26,873 nt of DNA from Breznakia sp. PF5-3 (lineage in GTDB: Bacteria; Bacillota_I; Bacilli_A; Erysipelotrichales; Erysipelotrichaceae), in NCBI RefSeq assembly GCF_029504745.1, contig NZ_JAQFIQ010000032.1:1-26873 (forward strand). The letters run 5' to 3'. Shown one piece after another: positions 1 through 14,626 of this stretch. The stretch's first letter is position 1. Each line of letters opens with the position of its first letter. A program made the position numbers and the translations under genes. The notes beneath the pieces are model-generated. The model did not search any database. It saw only the letters and a list, made by a program, of their open reading frames with translations, and was not told where the DNA came from.

Positions 1-176
1 CCCTTATCCATTCTTGACTCGCCTTATGTGATTCGTATTCCTCGGGTCGGTAGTTTGCACTCCAACTTCCTTCAGATTCCACCTCGCGATGGACACCCTT
101 GTCTTCGGCTACGGGTTAGCGACTACACCCCCCACAGTGGACTTTCACCACTAGATATATGCCATGCCTAGCACAC
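1..176 (-). mobile_element. Group II intron (class C-like), 5' 176 nt of a second copy; the rest lies beyond the window edge
   Basis: 1..182 is identical by eye to 14416..14597. On the minus strand it begins GTGTGCTAGGCATGG at 176 and carries GGAATCTGAAGGAAG (rc of 66..80). It starts 1 nt after the U-tract of the MATE gene terminator. Confidence 0.8.
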
Positions 177-177
177 C

Positions 178-207
178 AAAAAAAGTAAAATCAAAGATTT
201 TACTTTT
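178..207 (-). terminator. Intrinsic terminator of the MATE gene
   Basis: Minus strand AAAAGTAAAATC-TTT-GATTTTACTTTT (12-bp stem) followed by TTTTTTTG. It overlaps the stop codon at 200..202. Confidence 0.8.
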
Positions 208-2813: not shown

Positions 2814-2864
2814 AATAAAAAAAGCTAATGTCCTACACTAAAAAGTATAGAAATCATCAGCTTT
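2814..2864 (-). terminator. Long intrinsic terminator hairpin directly abutting the antiporter RBS (adhesin terminator and/or leader attenuator)
   Basis: Minus strand AAAGCTGATG...CTATACT-TTT-AGTGTAG...CATTAGCTTT gives ~19 paired positions with a small internal loop. It is followed by TTTTTTTATT and then GGAGG. Confidence 0.65.
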
Positions 2865-2909
2865 CGCGGTTTAGATAAATATCTAGGGAGATTTCATTCC
2901 CTGTTATTT

Positions 2910-2938
2910 AGTATACACCTTTTTTATTTTTTGTCCAA
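2910..2938 (-). promoter_or_regulatory. Candidate sigma-A promoter for the antiporter leader
   Basis: Minus strand TTGGAC (2938..2933), 17-nt spacer, TATACT (2915..2910). The -35 element overlaps the last codons of the adhesin gene. Confidence 0.4.
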
Positions 2939-5900
2939 TGGTTTCCGCTTATAAACAAGAAACCCTAATGAGCCAACAACCAATCCTACCCAAAGCATAT
3001 AATTTGTATAATCCCCTGTAGCAATACTATTGGCAATATTTGAAATCATACTACCTGCTTTATCTGGTTTTTTATTTACATCATTTTTCACAAGCTTATC
3101 GTTTGTTACTGTATAACTCAACTTAAATGTTTTAATATCTTTGATTGATAGTTCATATGTCTTATCACTTTTCTTATAATCTTTTGGTGCTTTTACTTCT
3201 TTAAGTTCATAATCACCAGCTTTGATTTTTTCATACGTGATTTCTCCATCTTCATCACTCACTTGATTATCCCCAACAGCAGTACCATTTTTTGAAAGCA
3301 TAAACTCTGCCCCTTGCAAGCGTTTATTATCTTTCTCATCTTCTTTGATAATTGTTAAATCATAATAAGGTTGTAACCCTAGATTTTGATCAGATACACT
3401 TACATTCGCTGCAATTGAAATCTTATCACTTAATATCGTATCTTCATGGAAGATGGATACATCATTATTAGCAATACCTCGTGTTGTTGAAACAAACTTA
3501 GGCGCACATTTTAAATATTCTTCATATTCTTCATTGATGCTTATTTGAACATAGTATTCACCAGGATCAACCTCTGTAAAGATAAATCCTCCATCACTTT
3601 CAATATCAGCTTCATCAATAACTGTATGTGTATTATCCAATAATTCTACTTTTAAGATTTGAATATCATTATCATCTACATTATCACTGAATACTTGATC
3701 ACCTGCATTAGCATTGTATACACTATCATAATCTAAATCATAGAAGATAGAACCTGAAATTGTTTGGTTTGATTGATACATACCAAGATCATTATTCATA
3801 TCGTTTACACCACTTTTAAATTCCAACACACCACTTTCCCATACACCTTCATCTTCATTGAGGGTGAATATGTTACCATCTGGTGAAGTCCCTTTTGGTG
3901 ACACAAAATATCCTGTCTTTGGTGTTGCAACCATCTTATATTTTCCAGGTTTTATTTGATACATTGCATATCTTCCACTTGTATTTGTTGACGCTGTATA
4001 TTTCTCAGTCGTTTCTTTTTCATCATTATCAAGACGAATAAGTGTCATTTCATAATTACTAATGCCTTTTTCATTCGCATCGTATTGACCATTGGCATTT
4101 TCATCATTCCATACAAGATCTCCAATATTCAATATACGGTAGAATCCAGCATCAACATTGATACGTTTTTCACCTTCAGCAATTACAACATCTGCTGCTG
4201 CTTTTTCTTTTGTATCATCCCAATCAACAAAATCATTGTTTACATCATCACTACCAACATTTGGTTTAGACAAATAATATTGAGGACCCATAAATTCTAA
4301 TTCCACTGTATATTTTCCAGGGAATAAACCTGTAAATTCATAATGCCCATCCATACCAGTTATCGTTTCAGCGACAATATCACCTTTCGCATCAAGTAGT
4401 TTTACTGGTACATTCTTAAACAATGGTTCATCTACATCTTTCATGTCATTTCCATTTGTATCTTCCCAAGCTACTCCTGATATTTGTGCATTTGCTTCAT
4501 ATGTCGATGAATAAATTCCTGACTTATATGGTTCTCCAGGAATAATATACGTTCCTGTATCTAACTTTCCACCATATGCAACACTATTCCATGCCACTTT
4601 TACTTTATTCGTTGGTTTTGGCATTTTCATTTTCACGATAAATTCAATAGATTCACTTTGATCTAAGTTTTTAATATCTATACGCAAAGCATTAGCATCA
4701 CGATAACTAGCATCATTAGCACTACCATTAAAGTTTACCCATGTATTATAATCGGTTGTAAAATCAGTTAGATCATCTGCATTTTTATCATATACAGCAT
4801 CTTCACTAAATGCATATTCAACACTGGCTCCACTACTTGTAGTATAAGAGAGTGATAAAAATTCAGGTACTAGAGTAGAATTCTTTGGTGTATCTGTTAC
4901 AACTAAAGAATCTGATAATTCTGGTAACATATCAATGATTCTTAATTGGGCAAATTTTGAACTACTATTATTCTTAACACTAATTTTATAATATACTTCT
5001 TGGTTTGTAAGACTATTCCAATCTGCTTCTGTTAGATTAATATTATTTGCGTAGTCAACACCATTTAACGATGCTTCTTTACTCACTTCAAGATCTACAT
5101 GCTGTAAGAAGTTTACTGTTTGATATCTACTACCATGAGAATCAACAGGCACTGTCCCTACTGTTTCTATATTAGTTGGATATGTTGTATGTACATATTT
5201 TTGATTTTCATTTTCAGAAGCAAAATATGCATAATAAGTTGCACTAGTTCCACTTTTTGCTACTGCTGTAATACGTACCGCATATTGATTGTTGTAGTAA
5301 CTTCTAGGAATATCGCGATTATAATGCACAATAACAAGTGTTCTTCCACCCGAAATCGATCTCGTTTCAAACGTTGCATCTGGTGCATTGTTTGGATTTA
5401 CCAATTCTACTTTTTTAAAATCAACATTAGATGGTAAGATGAAATATCCAGCTCCTGAAAGTAAATCTCCACTTCCATCTACATTATTCATATTGATTGT
5501 ATATGTGAATGTATCGCCGATTGCTGGATTTCTTGGACTATACATAGAATCCCAATCATTTGATAGTAGTGGATTCGATAATCCCAACCCTGCTCCACGT
5601 TCAATATAAGTTGTCGTAAATGTACGAACATTTTTATCATCTTCTTCTTTTATATCTGTAAAACTTGTAGCCCCAACATCCTTTTGTTTTCCATAAATAC
5701 GCAATGTGTTGGTAAGACCATCATTTAACCCTTCGGTTTTATTTTGAATTCCTAATAATGTATCAGCTTCCATTGTAATTACTACTTTTCCTGCTTCAAT
5801 AGGAATCTCACTTGAACCATTATAATTAAAATCATATTTTACTTTGGTTACATATTCATCTGCTTCTAAATTTAAATCACTGATATTTATTTGACCACTT

Positions 5901-14076: not shown

Positions 14077-14591
14077 ATCGAGTAGGAGGTAACTGATTAA
14101 TTCAGTTACCGACCTCTCACACCACCGTACGCTCTCAACTTACACGGTTAATTTTACACTCCCAAAGTTAAATTAGAAAGTGTCTACGTTTAAGTTGTCC
14201 ACTTTCTTGACATAGTACCACTTTGCTCATTGCGCATTACCGCAACTTCTTAACTACTACGACGCTTGCTGACTTCTCACTATTCGTTGTTACTACGATA
14301 TTTCTATCGCTAGTGAGACCTCCTAGGGTAAGGTCATATATCTTTCTTACCATGTACCCGCCACATTTACATTTCAAGCACTCTTTAGCCTATTGGAACT
14401 TCGGATCGTTTGGCACCCTTATCCATTCTTGACTCGCCTTATGTGATTCGTATTCCTCGGGTCGGTAGTTTGCACTCCAACTTCCTTCAGATTCCACCTC
14501 GCGATGGACACCCTTGTCTTCGGCTACGGGTTAGCGACTACACCCCCCACAGTGGACTTTCACCACTAGATATATGCCATGCCTAGCACAC
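14077..14591 (-). mobile_element. ORF-less group II intron, class C-like ribozyme (~515 nt; 3' boundary +/-15 nt)
   Basis: This is a GC-richer block with no long minus-strand ORF. The minus strand starts GTGTGCTAGGCATGG. It then has GGTGAAAGTCC, CAAGGGTGTCCATCGCGAGGTGGAATCTGAAGGAAG, GAGGAATACGAA, AATGGATAAG, CTTACCCTAGGAGGTCT, GAAGTCAGCA and CGTACGGTGGTGTG. These are in the same order as in my recollection of the O. iheyensis group IIC intron. A domain VI-like hairpin (14088..14110) and ...CCTACTCGAT lie at the 3' end. The 5' end lies 1 nt after a terminator U-tract. Confidence 0.8.
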
Positions 14592-14592
14592 C

Positions 14593-14626
14593 AAAAACAG
14601 GCAATATTTAAGAAAATATTGCCTGT
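14593..14626 (-). terminator. Intrinsic terminator of the ECF/transglutaminase operon; intron target site
   Basis: Minus strand ACAGGCAATATTT-TCTT-AAATATTGCCTGT (13-bp stem) followed by TTTTTG and then the intron GTGTG. Confidence 0.85.

What the first reader, a model, noticed from the sequence alone, without database searches (positions are those of the whole stretch)
14077..14591. Reverse-transcriptase-less class C group II intron (ribozyme-only mini-intron)
The block is visibly GC-richer than its flanks and has no minus-strand ORF of 60 aa or more. Read on the minus strand it opens with GTGTG. It then follows, motif after motif, the domain I-III layout I remember from the O. iheyensis group IIC ribozyme: GGTGAAAGTCC, CAAGGGTGTCC..GCGAGGTGGAATCTGAAGGAAG, GAGGAATACGAA, CTTACCCTAGGAGGTCT, GAAGTCAGCA and CGTACGGTGGTGTG. 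It ends in a domain VI-like hairpin. A short closed stem (GAAAGTG...CACTTTC) sits where domain IV would normally carry the ~1.3-kb intron-encoded protein gene. Bacterial group II introns almost always encode their own RT/maturase. A ~0.5-kb ORF-less element that still appears mobile (next finding) would have to be mobilised in trans, like a MITE.
Basis: partly seen in the sequence, partly recalled or inferred. Interest (0 to 1): 0.75.

Follow-up and report, generated by a model that had tools for sequence, protein, structure and literature searches.

The report
Dead group II intron broken by IS elements
The 515-base block is a real class C group II intron that landed behind a transcription terminator, but its middle was replaced by scraps of two insertion sequences, so it is an ordinary dead relic rather than a self-sufficient mobile mini-ribozyme.

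Summary
Window 14077-14591 (minus strand) starts with GTGTG directly after a terminator hairpin and T-run. It hits Rfam group-II-D1D4-3 at 118.9 bits and ends in a domain VI hairpin with a bulged A and ...CUCGAU, as in RT-containing class C relatives.

- Intron sequence stops at 14221, just before the closing strand of domain III.
- 14220-14164 is the terminal repeat of an IS3-family element.
- 14163-14125 is the first 39 nt of an IS256-family element, 36/37 identical to copies in 33 metagenome contigs with unrelated flanks.
- Intron sequence resumes at a 7-nt microhomology (CGTACGG) with only the 3' strand of domain V, then domain VI.

Domain IV, the RT gene and the 5' strand of domain V with its catalytic triad are missing. 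RF00029 scores 14.9 bits here against 45.6-49.3 in four relatives, and the "DV" fold is no better than shuffled sequence.

A second copy (window 1-176) shares domain I. Assembly breakpoints indicate that other copies share only D1-D3, so the chimeric form is unique to this locus. Verdict: an IS-disrupted, internally deleted intron fossil, of low interest.

The parts
14593..14626 (-). Target site of copy 1: an intrinsic-terminator-like hairpin (stem-loop 14626->14597, ACAGGCAATATTT-tctt-AAATATTGCCTGT) followed by TTTTT (14597->14593). G at 14592 comes next, then the intron. It lies downstream of a 30-aa ORF and the 818-aa transglutaminase-like gene.
   Evidence: The terminator scan reports 13 pairs, a 4-nt loop and the tail TTTTGGTGTG. 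The same architecture sits upstream of copy 2 and of relatives.
14221..14591 (-). Intron 5' fragment of 371 nt: GTGTG start, domain I, domain II, J2/3 (GAAGTCAGCA) and domain III up to ...GAGCAAAG. The closing 3' strand of the basal helix of domain III is missing.
   Evidence: RF02001 scores 118.9 bits at 14333-14508. RF01998 scores only 18.3 bits at 14217-14315, against 40-69 bits in relatives. In the alignment, Roseburia L010 continues GGAGCAAAG-GGGC-GAAC where ours continues TGGTAC. The first 176 nt are identical to copy 2.
14164..14220 (-). IS3-family terminal inverted-repeat fragment of 57 nt: TGGTACTATGTCAAGAAAGTGGACAACTTAAACGTAGACACTTTCTAATTTAACTTT. The IS body would have extended towards the 3' side.
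   Evidence: It matches sequences at the outer edge of annotated IS3-family transposase genes: L. salivarius pMP118 (32 nt, 90.6%) and B. thuringiensis pBtoxis (44 nt, 79.5% by blastn; 53 nt by local alignment; only a 120-nt IS3 transposase fragment is annotated there). It also matches the end of an IS3-like element (annotated by me from its OrfA-like ORF) nested in L047 (18 nt exact). All begin TGGT at the element edge.
14125..14163 (-). IS256-family left-end fragment of 39 nt: GGGAGTGTAAAATTAACCGTGTAAGTTGAGAGCGTACGG. It starts at the IS terminus, and its body would also have extended towards the 3' side.
   Evidence: The exact 25-mer occurs in 33 metagenome contigs, always at the same distance from a conserved terminus GAGAGTGTAA and with unrelated upstream flanks. 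Identity is 36/37 to one subfamily. The adjacent ORF in full copies is Transposase_mut PF00872, E 7.2e-107.
14125..14131 (-). Junction microhomology CGTACGG. It is shared by IS256 positions 33-39 and by the 3' strand of domain V in relatives (CCGTACGTACGGTGGTGTG).
   Evidence: The IS consensus continues CTCAGCTCACACGG after CGTACGG, whereas ours continues TGGTGTGAGAGG, as intron relatives do. All 33 IS matches stop at this point.
14077..14131 (-). Intron 3' fragment: the 3' strand of domain V (CGTACGGTGGTGTG, 14131->14118), then domain VI (14117->14077) with a bulged branch-point A in CCUACUCGAU. The 3' splice site follows ...CGAT at 14077.
   Evidence: Alignment A2 shows the sequence invariant or near-identical to L002, L010, L011 and L014 from CGG onwards. 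Plasmid BLAST gives 98.2% identity over 55 nt to L. salivarius introns.
1..176 (-). Copy 2 of the same intron: domain I only, cut off by the window start. GTGTG begins at 176.
   Evidence: The repeat 1-185 against 14416-14600 is 99% identical, and the single mismatch is in the exon T-run. RF02001 gives a truncated hit of 57.6 bits.
177..207 (-). Target site of copy 2: hairpin AAAAGTAAAAT-ctttg-ATTTTACTTTT (207->181) overlapping the MatE stop codon, then TTT and G.
   Evidence: Read directly from the sequence. It is too A+T-rich for the scan's criterion of 3 G-C pairs.

Best explanation
The block is an inactivated copy of a class C (IIC) group II intron.

Inferred history:
1. A full-length intron retro-inserted immediately after the terminator hairpin and T-run downstream of the 30-aa ORF, the usual class C target.
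2. An IS3-family element transposed into it at the 3' edge of domain III, between 14221 and 14220.
3. An IS256-family element transposed into that IS3, 57 nt from its end.
4. A single deletion of roughly 4 kb joined nt 39 of the IS256 to the 3' strand of domain V across a 7-nt microhomology (CGTACGG).

That deletion removed both IS bodies, the closing strand of domain III, domain IV with the RT/maturase gene, and the 5' strand and apex of domain V with its catalytic triad.

What remains is 371 nt of intron, 57 nt of IS3 end, 39 nt of IS256 end and 55 nt of intron. By coincidence this has the size and both termini of an ORF-less mini-intron.

Without domain V it cannot catalyse splicing or reverse splicing, so it is immobile. 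It is tolerated because it lies in an intergenic spacer behind a terminator.

Shown directly: the mosaic composition, the missing parts and both junctions. Inferred: the order of events and the single deletion.
For: Intron identity and termini:
- RF02001 scores 118.9 bits.
- The 5' GTGTG follows a terminator hairpin and T-run at both copies.
- DVI and the 3' end are near-identical to RT-containing relatives.

Loss of domain V:
- RF00029 scores 14.9 bits here against 45.6, 45.8, 48.2 and 49.3 bits in L010, L002, L011 and L014 with the same filters.
- The DV fold is -5.9 kcal/mol, z -0.48, against -19.4 and -20.1 in relatives.
- Relatives read GAACCGCCG(T/A)(A/G)TAC..GTACG(T/C)(A/T)CGGTGGTGTG. 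Ours has no CCGCCG 5' strand.

IS256 piece:
- The 25-mer spanning the supposed DV 5' half is found in 33 metagenome contigs with unrelated flanks. None of them contains D1-D3 or DVI.
- Conservation begins exactly at GAGAGTG and identity to ours is 36/37.
- The adjacent gene is a Mutator-family (IS256-type) transposase, E 7.2e-107.

IS3 piece:
- It matches sequences at the edges of annotated IS3-family transposase genes in two plasmids (one a 120-nt transposase fragment) and the end of an IS3-like element nested in L047.
- In pMP118 the transposase genes lie on the side that is deleted here. The IS256 ORF also reads towards that side. Both facts fit one deletion.

Domain III truncation: alignment A3; RF01998 scores 18.3 bits against 40-69 in relatives.

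Uniqueness of the chimera:
- In GCA_029504715.1 the locus is split into two contigs that run into the intron.
- The upstream contig stops 95 nt past the last base that differs from copy 2 (14598 to 14503).
- The downstream contig starts at 14315, which is 95 nt before 14220, the first IS3 base.
- So the repeat shared with other copies is the T-run plus intron 1-371 only.

Not an assembly artefact: the identical sequence is present in GCA_029504775.1, and both junctions are present in GCA_029504715.1.
Against: - No full-length copy of this exact intron lineage was recovered, so the original sequence after ...GAGCAAAG is inferred from relatives that are about 70% identical.
- The IS3 assignment rests on short matches (32 nt at 90.6%, 44-53 nt at about 79%, 18 nt exact). 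The donor IS was not found.
- No target-site duplications can be checked, because only one end of each IS survives.
- The order of events and the single-deletion step are inferred.
- The 100% identity of domain I with copy 2 means the insertion is recent. All the damage must therefore be recent too, or gene conversion between copies must be invoked.
- The breakpoint arithmetic assumes a de Bruijn assembler with k near 96-99.
Confidence: 0.85

Rival explanations
1. A complete, RT-less class C ribozyme with a minimal closed domain IV and an unusual but functional domain V, spliced and mobilised in trans by the protein of a full-length relative, like a MITE.
For: - Correct 5' and 3' termini, an intact-looking DI and DVI, and the class C target site.
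- A second copy behind another terminator, with an identical domain I.
- ORF-less bacterial introns with several copies and a possible trans-acting IEP are documented, for example B.c.I7 on pE33L466 (PMC2504315) and the review PMC4424553.
Against: - The supposed DV 5' strand and DIV stem are IS256 and IS3 termini found elsewhere with no intron around them.
- There is no catalytic-triad helix. RF00029 is about 31 bits below relatives and the fold is indistinguishable from shuffles.
- The closing strand of domain III is absent.
- The chimeric part is unique to this locus according to contig breakpoints.
- The junctions were not seen in any of the 33 contigs.
Confidence: 0.03
2. The same dead chimera, made in one step during retromobility. 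The intron RT, copying the intron RNA from its 3' end, switched templates at CGTACGG onto IS-containing RNA and then back onto the intron at domain III. The copy would then have been born defective rather than damaged afterwards.
For: - There is a microhomology at the DV/IS256 junction.
- Both intron termini are perfect and domain I is 100% identical to copy 2, which suits a very young copy.
- Template switching by group II intron RTs is established biochemistry (my own knowledge, not tested here).
Against: - The IS3 piece and the IS256 piece each begin exactly at the DNA terminus of their element. That is the signature of transposition into DNA, not of switching between RNAs, since IS transcripts do not start at the first base of the element.
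- Three consecutive switches would be required.
Confidence: 0.08
3. Assembly artefact: a chimeric contig that collapses reads from an intron, an IS3 and an IS256.
For: Contigs of these assemblies break inside the intron, and the window itself starts inside copy 2, so repeats do trouble these assemblies.
Against: - The 644-nt region is 100% identical in GCA_029504775.1.
- A separate contig of GCA_029504715.1 contains both junctions and runs into the unique downstream lipoprotein gene.
- The pieces are shorter than typical k-mers or reads, so reads would span them.
Confidence: 0.02

Closest known systems
Bacterial class C (IIC) group II introns with an RT/maturase, e.g. B.h.I1 of Bacillus halodurans and O.i.I1 of Oceanobacillus iheyensis. 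The comparators used here are the introns on S. aureus plasmid CP049442, Roseburia plasmid NZ_CP135163, L. salivarius plasmid NZ_CP114507 and L. plantarum plasmid NZ_CP116750.
   Same: GUGYG start, domain I-III sequence (about 70-73% identical), insertion right after a terminator hairpin and T-run with a 3-4 nt IBS1, and a domain VI and 3' end ...CCUACUCGAU that are nearly identical (target rule from PMC1702495).
   Different: It has no domain IV, no RT gene, no 5' strand or apex of domain V and no closing strand of domain III. In their place are 96 nt of IS debris.
Documented ORF-less bacterial group II introns: B.c.I7 ORF-less copies on B. cereus pE33L466, B.c.I13, B.th.I2, C.te.I1 and the set of Simon et al. 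2008.
   Same: About 0.5-0.7 kb, no IEP, and a related copy of the intron in the same genome.
   Different: [quoted passage not shown] Here domain V is destroyed and the gap is filled with foreign IS ends.
Fragmented or inactivated group II intron copies in bacterial genomes (e.g. 111 fragments in 90 Enterobacteriales strains, PMC3522654).
   Same: A non-functional remnant of a retroelement in a non-coding position, alongside other mobile DNA.
   Different: Both termini are retained, so it imitates a complete mini-intron. Whether the fragments in that survey retain both termini was not checked here.
IS256-family (Mutator-type transposase) and IS3-family insertion sequences.
   Same: The terminal 39 nt and 57 nt match the ends of such elements.
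   Different: Only one end of each is present. There is no transposase, no second inverted repeat and no target duplication, so these are remnants and not elements.

Membership tests
Group II intron, class C (as a derivative by descent) | Domain I-III ribozyme sequence and structure with a GUGYG 5' end | tested here: met
   RF02001 scores 118.9 bits over the full model at 14333-14508, and GTGTG is at 14591. Identity to plasmid-borne IIC introns is 69-73% over intron positions 1-347.
Group II intron, class C (as a derivative by descent) | Insertion directly downstream of an intrinsic-terminator-like hairpin and T-run | tested here: met
   Copy 1: 13-bp stem, 4-nt loop, TTTTT, G, then the intron. 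Copy 2: an A+T-rich hairpin plus T-run. Relatives L001, L002, L003, L011 and L014 have the same arrangement.
Group II intron, class C (as a derivative by descent) | Domain VI hairpin with a bulged branch-point A, 7-8 nt from a 3' end of the form ...AY | tested here: met
   The fold and alignment show GAGAGG..CCU-A-CUCGAU, with one mismatch to the L. salivarius intron over the last 55 nt.
Functional group II ribozyme (able to splice or reverse-splice) | Domain V: a hairpin of about 34 nt with a catalytic triad (CGC/AGC) in the 5' strand, a 2-nt bulge and an apical tetraloop | tested here: not met
   RF00029 scores 14.9 bits against 45.6-49.3 in four relatives. The fold is -5.9 kcal/mol, z -0.48. 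Only the 3' strand is intron-derived. The rest is an IS256 end.
Functional group II ribozyme (able to splice or reverse-splice) | Complete domain III (closed basal helix) following J2/3 | tested here: not met
   RF01998 scores 18.3 bits (gathering score 35; relatives 40-69). Intron homology ends at ...GAGCAAAG, and the closing strand is replaced by TGGTAC of the IS3 end.
Mobile group II intron retroelement | Intron-encoded RT/maturase in domain IV | tested here: not met
   There is no minus-strand ORF of 60 aa or more in 14077-14591. Relatives carry ltrA genes of about 1.3 kb.
ORF-less intron mobilised in trans (MITE-like) | Several copies of the same ORF-less form at different sites | tested here: not met
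   Contig breakpoints place the start of copy-1-specific sequence at 14220, so other copies share only D1-D3. Neither chimeric junction occurs in any fetched locus. An exact-peptide probe inside the intron found only this locus. The complete genome was not available.
ORF-less intron mobilised in trans (MITE-like) | A closely related RT-encoding intron in the same genome | not testable with these tools
   Copy 2 is cut off at the window start. Exact-protein look-ups of its neighbour genes (MatE, tried with two start codons, and the Na+/H+ exchanger) failed. The genome-collection scan found only a different intron.
IS256 family insertion sequence | Terminal inverted repeats flanking a Mutator-type (PF00872) transposase | tested here: not met
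   Only the first 39 nt of the left end is present. The transposase is seen only in the metagenome copies. This is a fragment, not a member element.
IS3 family insertion sequence | TG...CA terminal inverted repeats flanking orfA/orfB transposase genes | tested here: not met
   Only one terminal segment of 57 nt beginning TGGTAC is present. Its homologues lie at the edges of annotated IS3-family transposase genes. This is a fragment only.

The most novel reading that the evidence does not exclude
The chimera could still be biologically active. One route would be domain V supplied in trans by a full-length copy in the same cell, as in fragmented organellar introns. Another would be the IS256-end hairpin region substituting structurally. 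Either would let the RNA be excised or even mobilised despite lacking its own catalytic domain.
Probability: 0.02. Interest if true: 0.6.

Novelty: new member of a known kind. Interest (0 to 1): 0.12.

Why it matters
The biological value is small: one more inactivated group II intron in an intergenic spacer of a low-GC Firmicute. The value is mainly cautionary.

- The relic keeps both intron termini, a strong D1-D4 covariance-model hit and a domain VI hairpin. Motif reading, or a pipeline that checks only the D1-D4 model and the ends, would therefore file it as a rare ORF-less intron.
- Only calibrating the DV/DVI score on RT-containing relatives and searching the odd segment on its own showed that it is IS debris.
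- It is also a compact example of nested mobile-element traffic (intron, then IS3, then IS256, then a microhomology deletion) at a terminator.
- It shows that the intron family was recently active in this genome, because two copies have identical domain I sequences.

Tried and rejected
1. RF00029 at gathering threshold found nothing in the window or in relatives L001-L003. I first took that miss as uninformative. The sensitive scan then showed that relatives score 45.6-49.3 bits, so the fast filters had dropped them and the low score of ours is meaningful.

2. I first read the odd DV as a mutated DV with a 3-nt deletion and a scrambled apex. I also read the upstream roughly 70 nt as a remnant of the 3' end of the RT ORF, from local alignments to L011 and L014. 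I rejected both once the same sequence turned out to be an IS256 end and an IS3 end, which match far better.

3. Attempts to recover the rest of copy 2 all failed:
- Exact-protein look-ups for MatE with two start codons and for the Na+/H+ exchanger found nothing on record.
- The spurious 38-aa peptide inside the intron, used as a copy probe, found only the same locus.

4. Searches for a full-length master of the same lineage:
- The genome-contig scan found only a different IIC intron, L003.
- The metagenome scan with a domain I 22-mer found nothing.
- Four viral-contig scans found nothing.
- The phage collection had only relatives at about 71% identity, and plasmids at most 73%.

5. L001 (P. 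acidaminophilum) was dropped as a DV comparator, because its 3' end is itself abnormal and a TnpB gene follows.

6. The organism was not identified. The locus occurs in NCBI assemblies GCA_029504775.1, GCA_029504715.1 and GCA_030266565.1.

Full report
**Observation**

It is 44.9% G+C in a 33.1% window. It has no minus-strand ORF of 60 aa or more. Rfam's group-II-D1D4-3 model (RF02001) matches 14333-14508 end to end at 118.9 bits. A second copy of the first 176 nt lies at window 1-176, cut off by the window start. It is identical apart from one base in the exon T-run.

Both copies follow a hairpin and T-run directly. For copy 1 the scan reports a 13-bp stem, a 4-nt loop and a TTTTT tail. For copy 2 an A+T-rich hairpin overlaps the MatE stop codon. 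This is the known class C target (PMC1702495). The surroundings are ordinary chromosomal genes: MatE, a Na+/H+ exchanger behind a fluoride riboswitch, a surface protein, miaA, mutL, mutS, a DUF6612 lipoprotein and a transglutaminase-like protein.

The domain V/VI model RF00029 gives only 14.9 bits here. I calibrated this on RT-containing relatives from plasmids:
- S. aureus L002
- Roseburia L010
- L. salivarius L011
- L. plantarum L014

With the same sensitive filters they score 45.6-49.3 bits. Their D2-D3 model (RF01998) scores 40-69 bits against 18.3 for ours. At gathering threshold the fast filters had dropped the L002 RF00029 hit, so that earlier miss was misleading.

Alignment A2 shows that ours is nearly identical to the relatives from CGTACGGTGGTGTG through domain VI to CTCGAT|T. 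The region where the relatives have the 5' strand of domain V and its apex (GAACCGCCGTATACGGAACCGTA) reads TTAACCGTGTAAGTTGAGAG in ours. That segment folds at -5.9 kcal/mol (z -0.48), against -19.4 and -20.1 kcal/mol for two relatives.

**What the odd sequence is**

I scanned metagenome contigs with the 25-mer AACCGTGTAAGTTGAGAGCGTACGG, expecting either nothing or more mini-introns. It gave 33 contigs. None of them has intron domain I or domain VI. In all of them the 25-mer lies 14 nt inside a conserved terminus, GAGAGTGTAA(A/T)ATA..., and the upstream flanks are unrelated. It is followed by a gene for a Mutator/IS256-type transposase (PF00872, E 7.2e-107).

Ours matches this IS256-family left end from its first base through nt 39 (36/37 to one subfamily). 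It departs from it after CGTACGG, where the IS continues CTCAGCTCACACGG and ours continues TGGTGTGAGAGG, as introns do. CGTACGG is also part of the DV 3' strand in relatives, so the junction is a 7-nt microhomology.

The 57 nt between domain III and the IS256 end (14220-14164, TGGTACTATGTCAAGAAAGTGGACAAC...) match three termini:
- the end of an IS3-like element nested in contig L047 (18 nt exact; I identified that element only by eye from an OrfA-like ORF)
- the edge of annotated IS3-family transposase genes on L. salivarius pMP118 (32 nt, 90.6%)
- the edge of a 120-nt annotated IS3 transposase fragment on B. thuringiensis pBtoxis (44 nt at 79.5% by blastn, about 53 nt by local alignment)

All start TGGT at the element edge. 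Alignment with relatives shows that intron homology ends at ...GAGCAAAG, just before the strand that closes domain III.

**Layout, minus strand**

| Window coordinates | Length | Content |
|---|---|---|
| 14591-14221 | 371 nt | intron D1, D2 and most of D3 |
| 14220-14164 | 57 nt | IS3-family end |
| 14163-14125 | 39 nt | IS256-family end |
| 14131-14077 | 55 nt | DV 3' strand and DVI, overlapping the IS256 piece by the 7-nt microhomology |

Missing are the D3 closing strand, domain IV, the RT/maturase gene, and the DV 5' strand with the catalytic triad and apex.

In pMP118 the IS3 transposase genes lie on the side that is deleted here. The IS256 transposase also reads towards that side. One deletion from IS256 nt 39 to the DV 3' strand would therefore explain the whole structure.

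**Is the chimera repeated?**

The same locus is present in three NCBI assemblies:
- In GCA_029504775.1 it is 100% identical.
- In GCA_029504715.1 it is split into two contigs that end inside the intron.
- In GCA_030266565.1 the contig starts downstream of the intron and does not cover it.

In the split assembly, the upstream contig stops at 14503. That is 95 nt past the last base that distinguishes copy 1 from copy 2 (14598). The downstream contig starts at 14315, which is 95 nt before 14220, the first IS3 base. The equal overhangs imply that the repeat shared with other copies is the T-run plus intron 1-371. They also imply that the IS-containing 3' part is unique to this locus. Neither junction occurs in any other fetched locus.

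The two-copy evidence therefore shows that the intron family was recently mobile. It does not show that this 515-nt form is mobile.

**Mechanism and rivals**

The best explanation (0.85) is a full-length IIC intron that was hit successively by an IS3 and an IS256 and then collapsed by a microhomology deletion. That left a catalytically dead, immobile fossil that is harmless behind a terminator.

| Rival | Confidence | Main objection |
|---|---|---|
| Functional ORF-less mini-intron | 0.03 | Contradicted by the missing DV and D3 strands and by the IS origin of the filler |
| Born-defective copy made by RT template switching | 0.08 | Gives the same dead product, but both IS pieces start exactly at DNA termini of their elements |
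| Assembly artefact | 0.02 | Identical sequence in separate assemblies and contigs |

**Comparison with what is known**

ORF-less bacterial group II introns are rare but documented. They usually sit in genomes with a related IEP-encoding copy (PMC4424553; B.c.I7, B.c.I13 and B.th.I2 in PMC2504315). As described in those papers, the B.c.I7 copies are clean ORF deletions and C.te.I1 self-splices in vitro. Fragmented, inactive copies are common (PMC3522654). This element belongs to the second group. It is a new, unannotated instance of a known kind.

**Limits**

- I could not obtain the full genome, the rest of copy 2, or a full-length intron of the same lineage.
- The IS3 assignment rests on short matches.
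- The order of events is inferred.

Noticed in passing
window 2841-2910 (minus strand): A fluoride riboswitch (crcB motif, RF01734, 43.4 bits, above its gathering score) lies directly upstream of a Na+/H+-exchanger-family gene (1627-2802), with a MatE transporter gene next to it.
   Followed up: no
window 1-207 (minus strand): The second intron copy is cut off at the window start, 176 nt into domain I. Sister contig JAQFIR010000034.1 corresponds to window 90-26873, so it starts inside the same copy. The window is therefore probably a whole contig that ends in this repeat. Whether copy 2 is full-length with an RT gene is unknown.
   Followed up: partly
L020 ~562-630, also L040, L042 and L044: A MITE-like derivative of the IS256-family element, about 69 nt long and made of two inverted ends only: GAGAGTGTAAAATAAACCGTGTAAGTTGAGAGCGTACGGCTCGGCTCACACGGTTTATTTTACACTCTC. 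It occurs in four metagenome contigs with different flanks.
   Followed up: no
L015-L047, IS256 left end, nt ~15-65 of the element: The IS256-family left end itself contains a hairpin followed by a T-run (AACCGTGTAAGTTGAG...CTCAGCTCACACGGTTTTTT), just upstream of the transposase gene. This terminator-like motif is the kind of site class C introns target.
   Followed up: no
L047 ~3484-4866: Here the IS256-family copy is interrupted by an IS3-like element (OrfA-like start MANKKPVFDNEFRNNAV...; identified by eye, not scanned against Pfam). This is the reverse nesting of what is inferred for the window.
   Followed up: partly
L013 2501-3370 (Persicobacter psychrovividus plasmid NZ_AP025299.1): Class C D1-D3 scores well here (RF02001 140.9 bits, RF01998 46.2 bits). 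There is no annotated RT gene, no RF00029 hit, and only about 520 nt before the next gene. This may be another ORF-less or truncated IIC intron, and a second plasmid of the species has a similar hit.
   Followed up: no
L003 1-120 (Clostridium sp. MAG contig CAOKPF010000068.1): A different class C intron shares about 45 nt of the 5' end (91%) and then diverges. It also sits right after a terminator hairpin and at the very end of its contig.
   Followed up: no
window 14537 (intron position 55), compared with L008: There is a single T-to-G difference (GTAGTCGC against GTAGGCGC) in domain I between the window and the GCA_029504715.1 contig. It may be a strain SNP, or the assembler may have followed another copy.
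   Followed up: no
L002 4801-4877, method note: At gathering threshold with default filters, cmscan missed an RF00029 hit of 45.8 bits (gathering score 40) that the sensitive mode found. A 'no DV hit' result from the fast mode is therefore unreliable for class C introns.
   Followed up: yes
L012 2501-4300 (Natranaerobius thermophilus plasmid) and L001 4725-4900: Two further relatives look degraded. L012 has only a 108-aa maturase-domain gene annotated and no DV/DVI hit. L001 has an intact ltrA gene, but an abnormal 3' end is followed by a TnpB gene.
   Followed up: no
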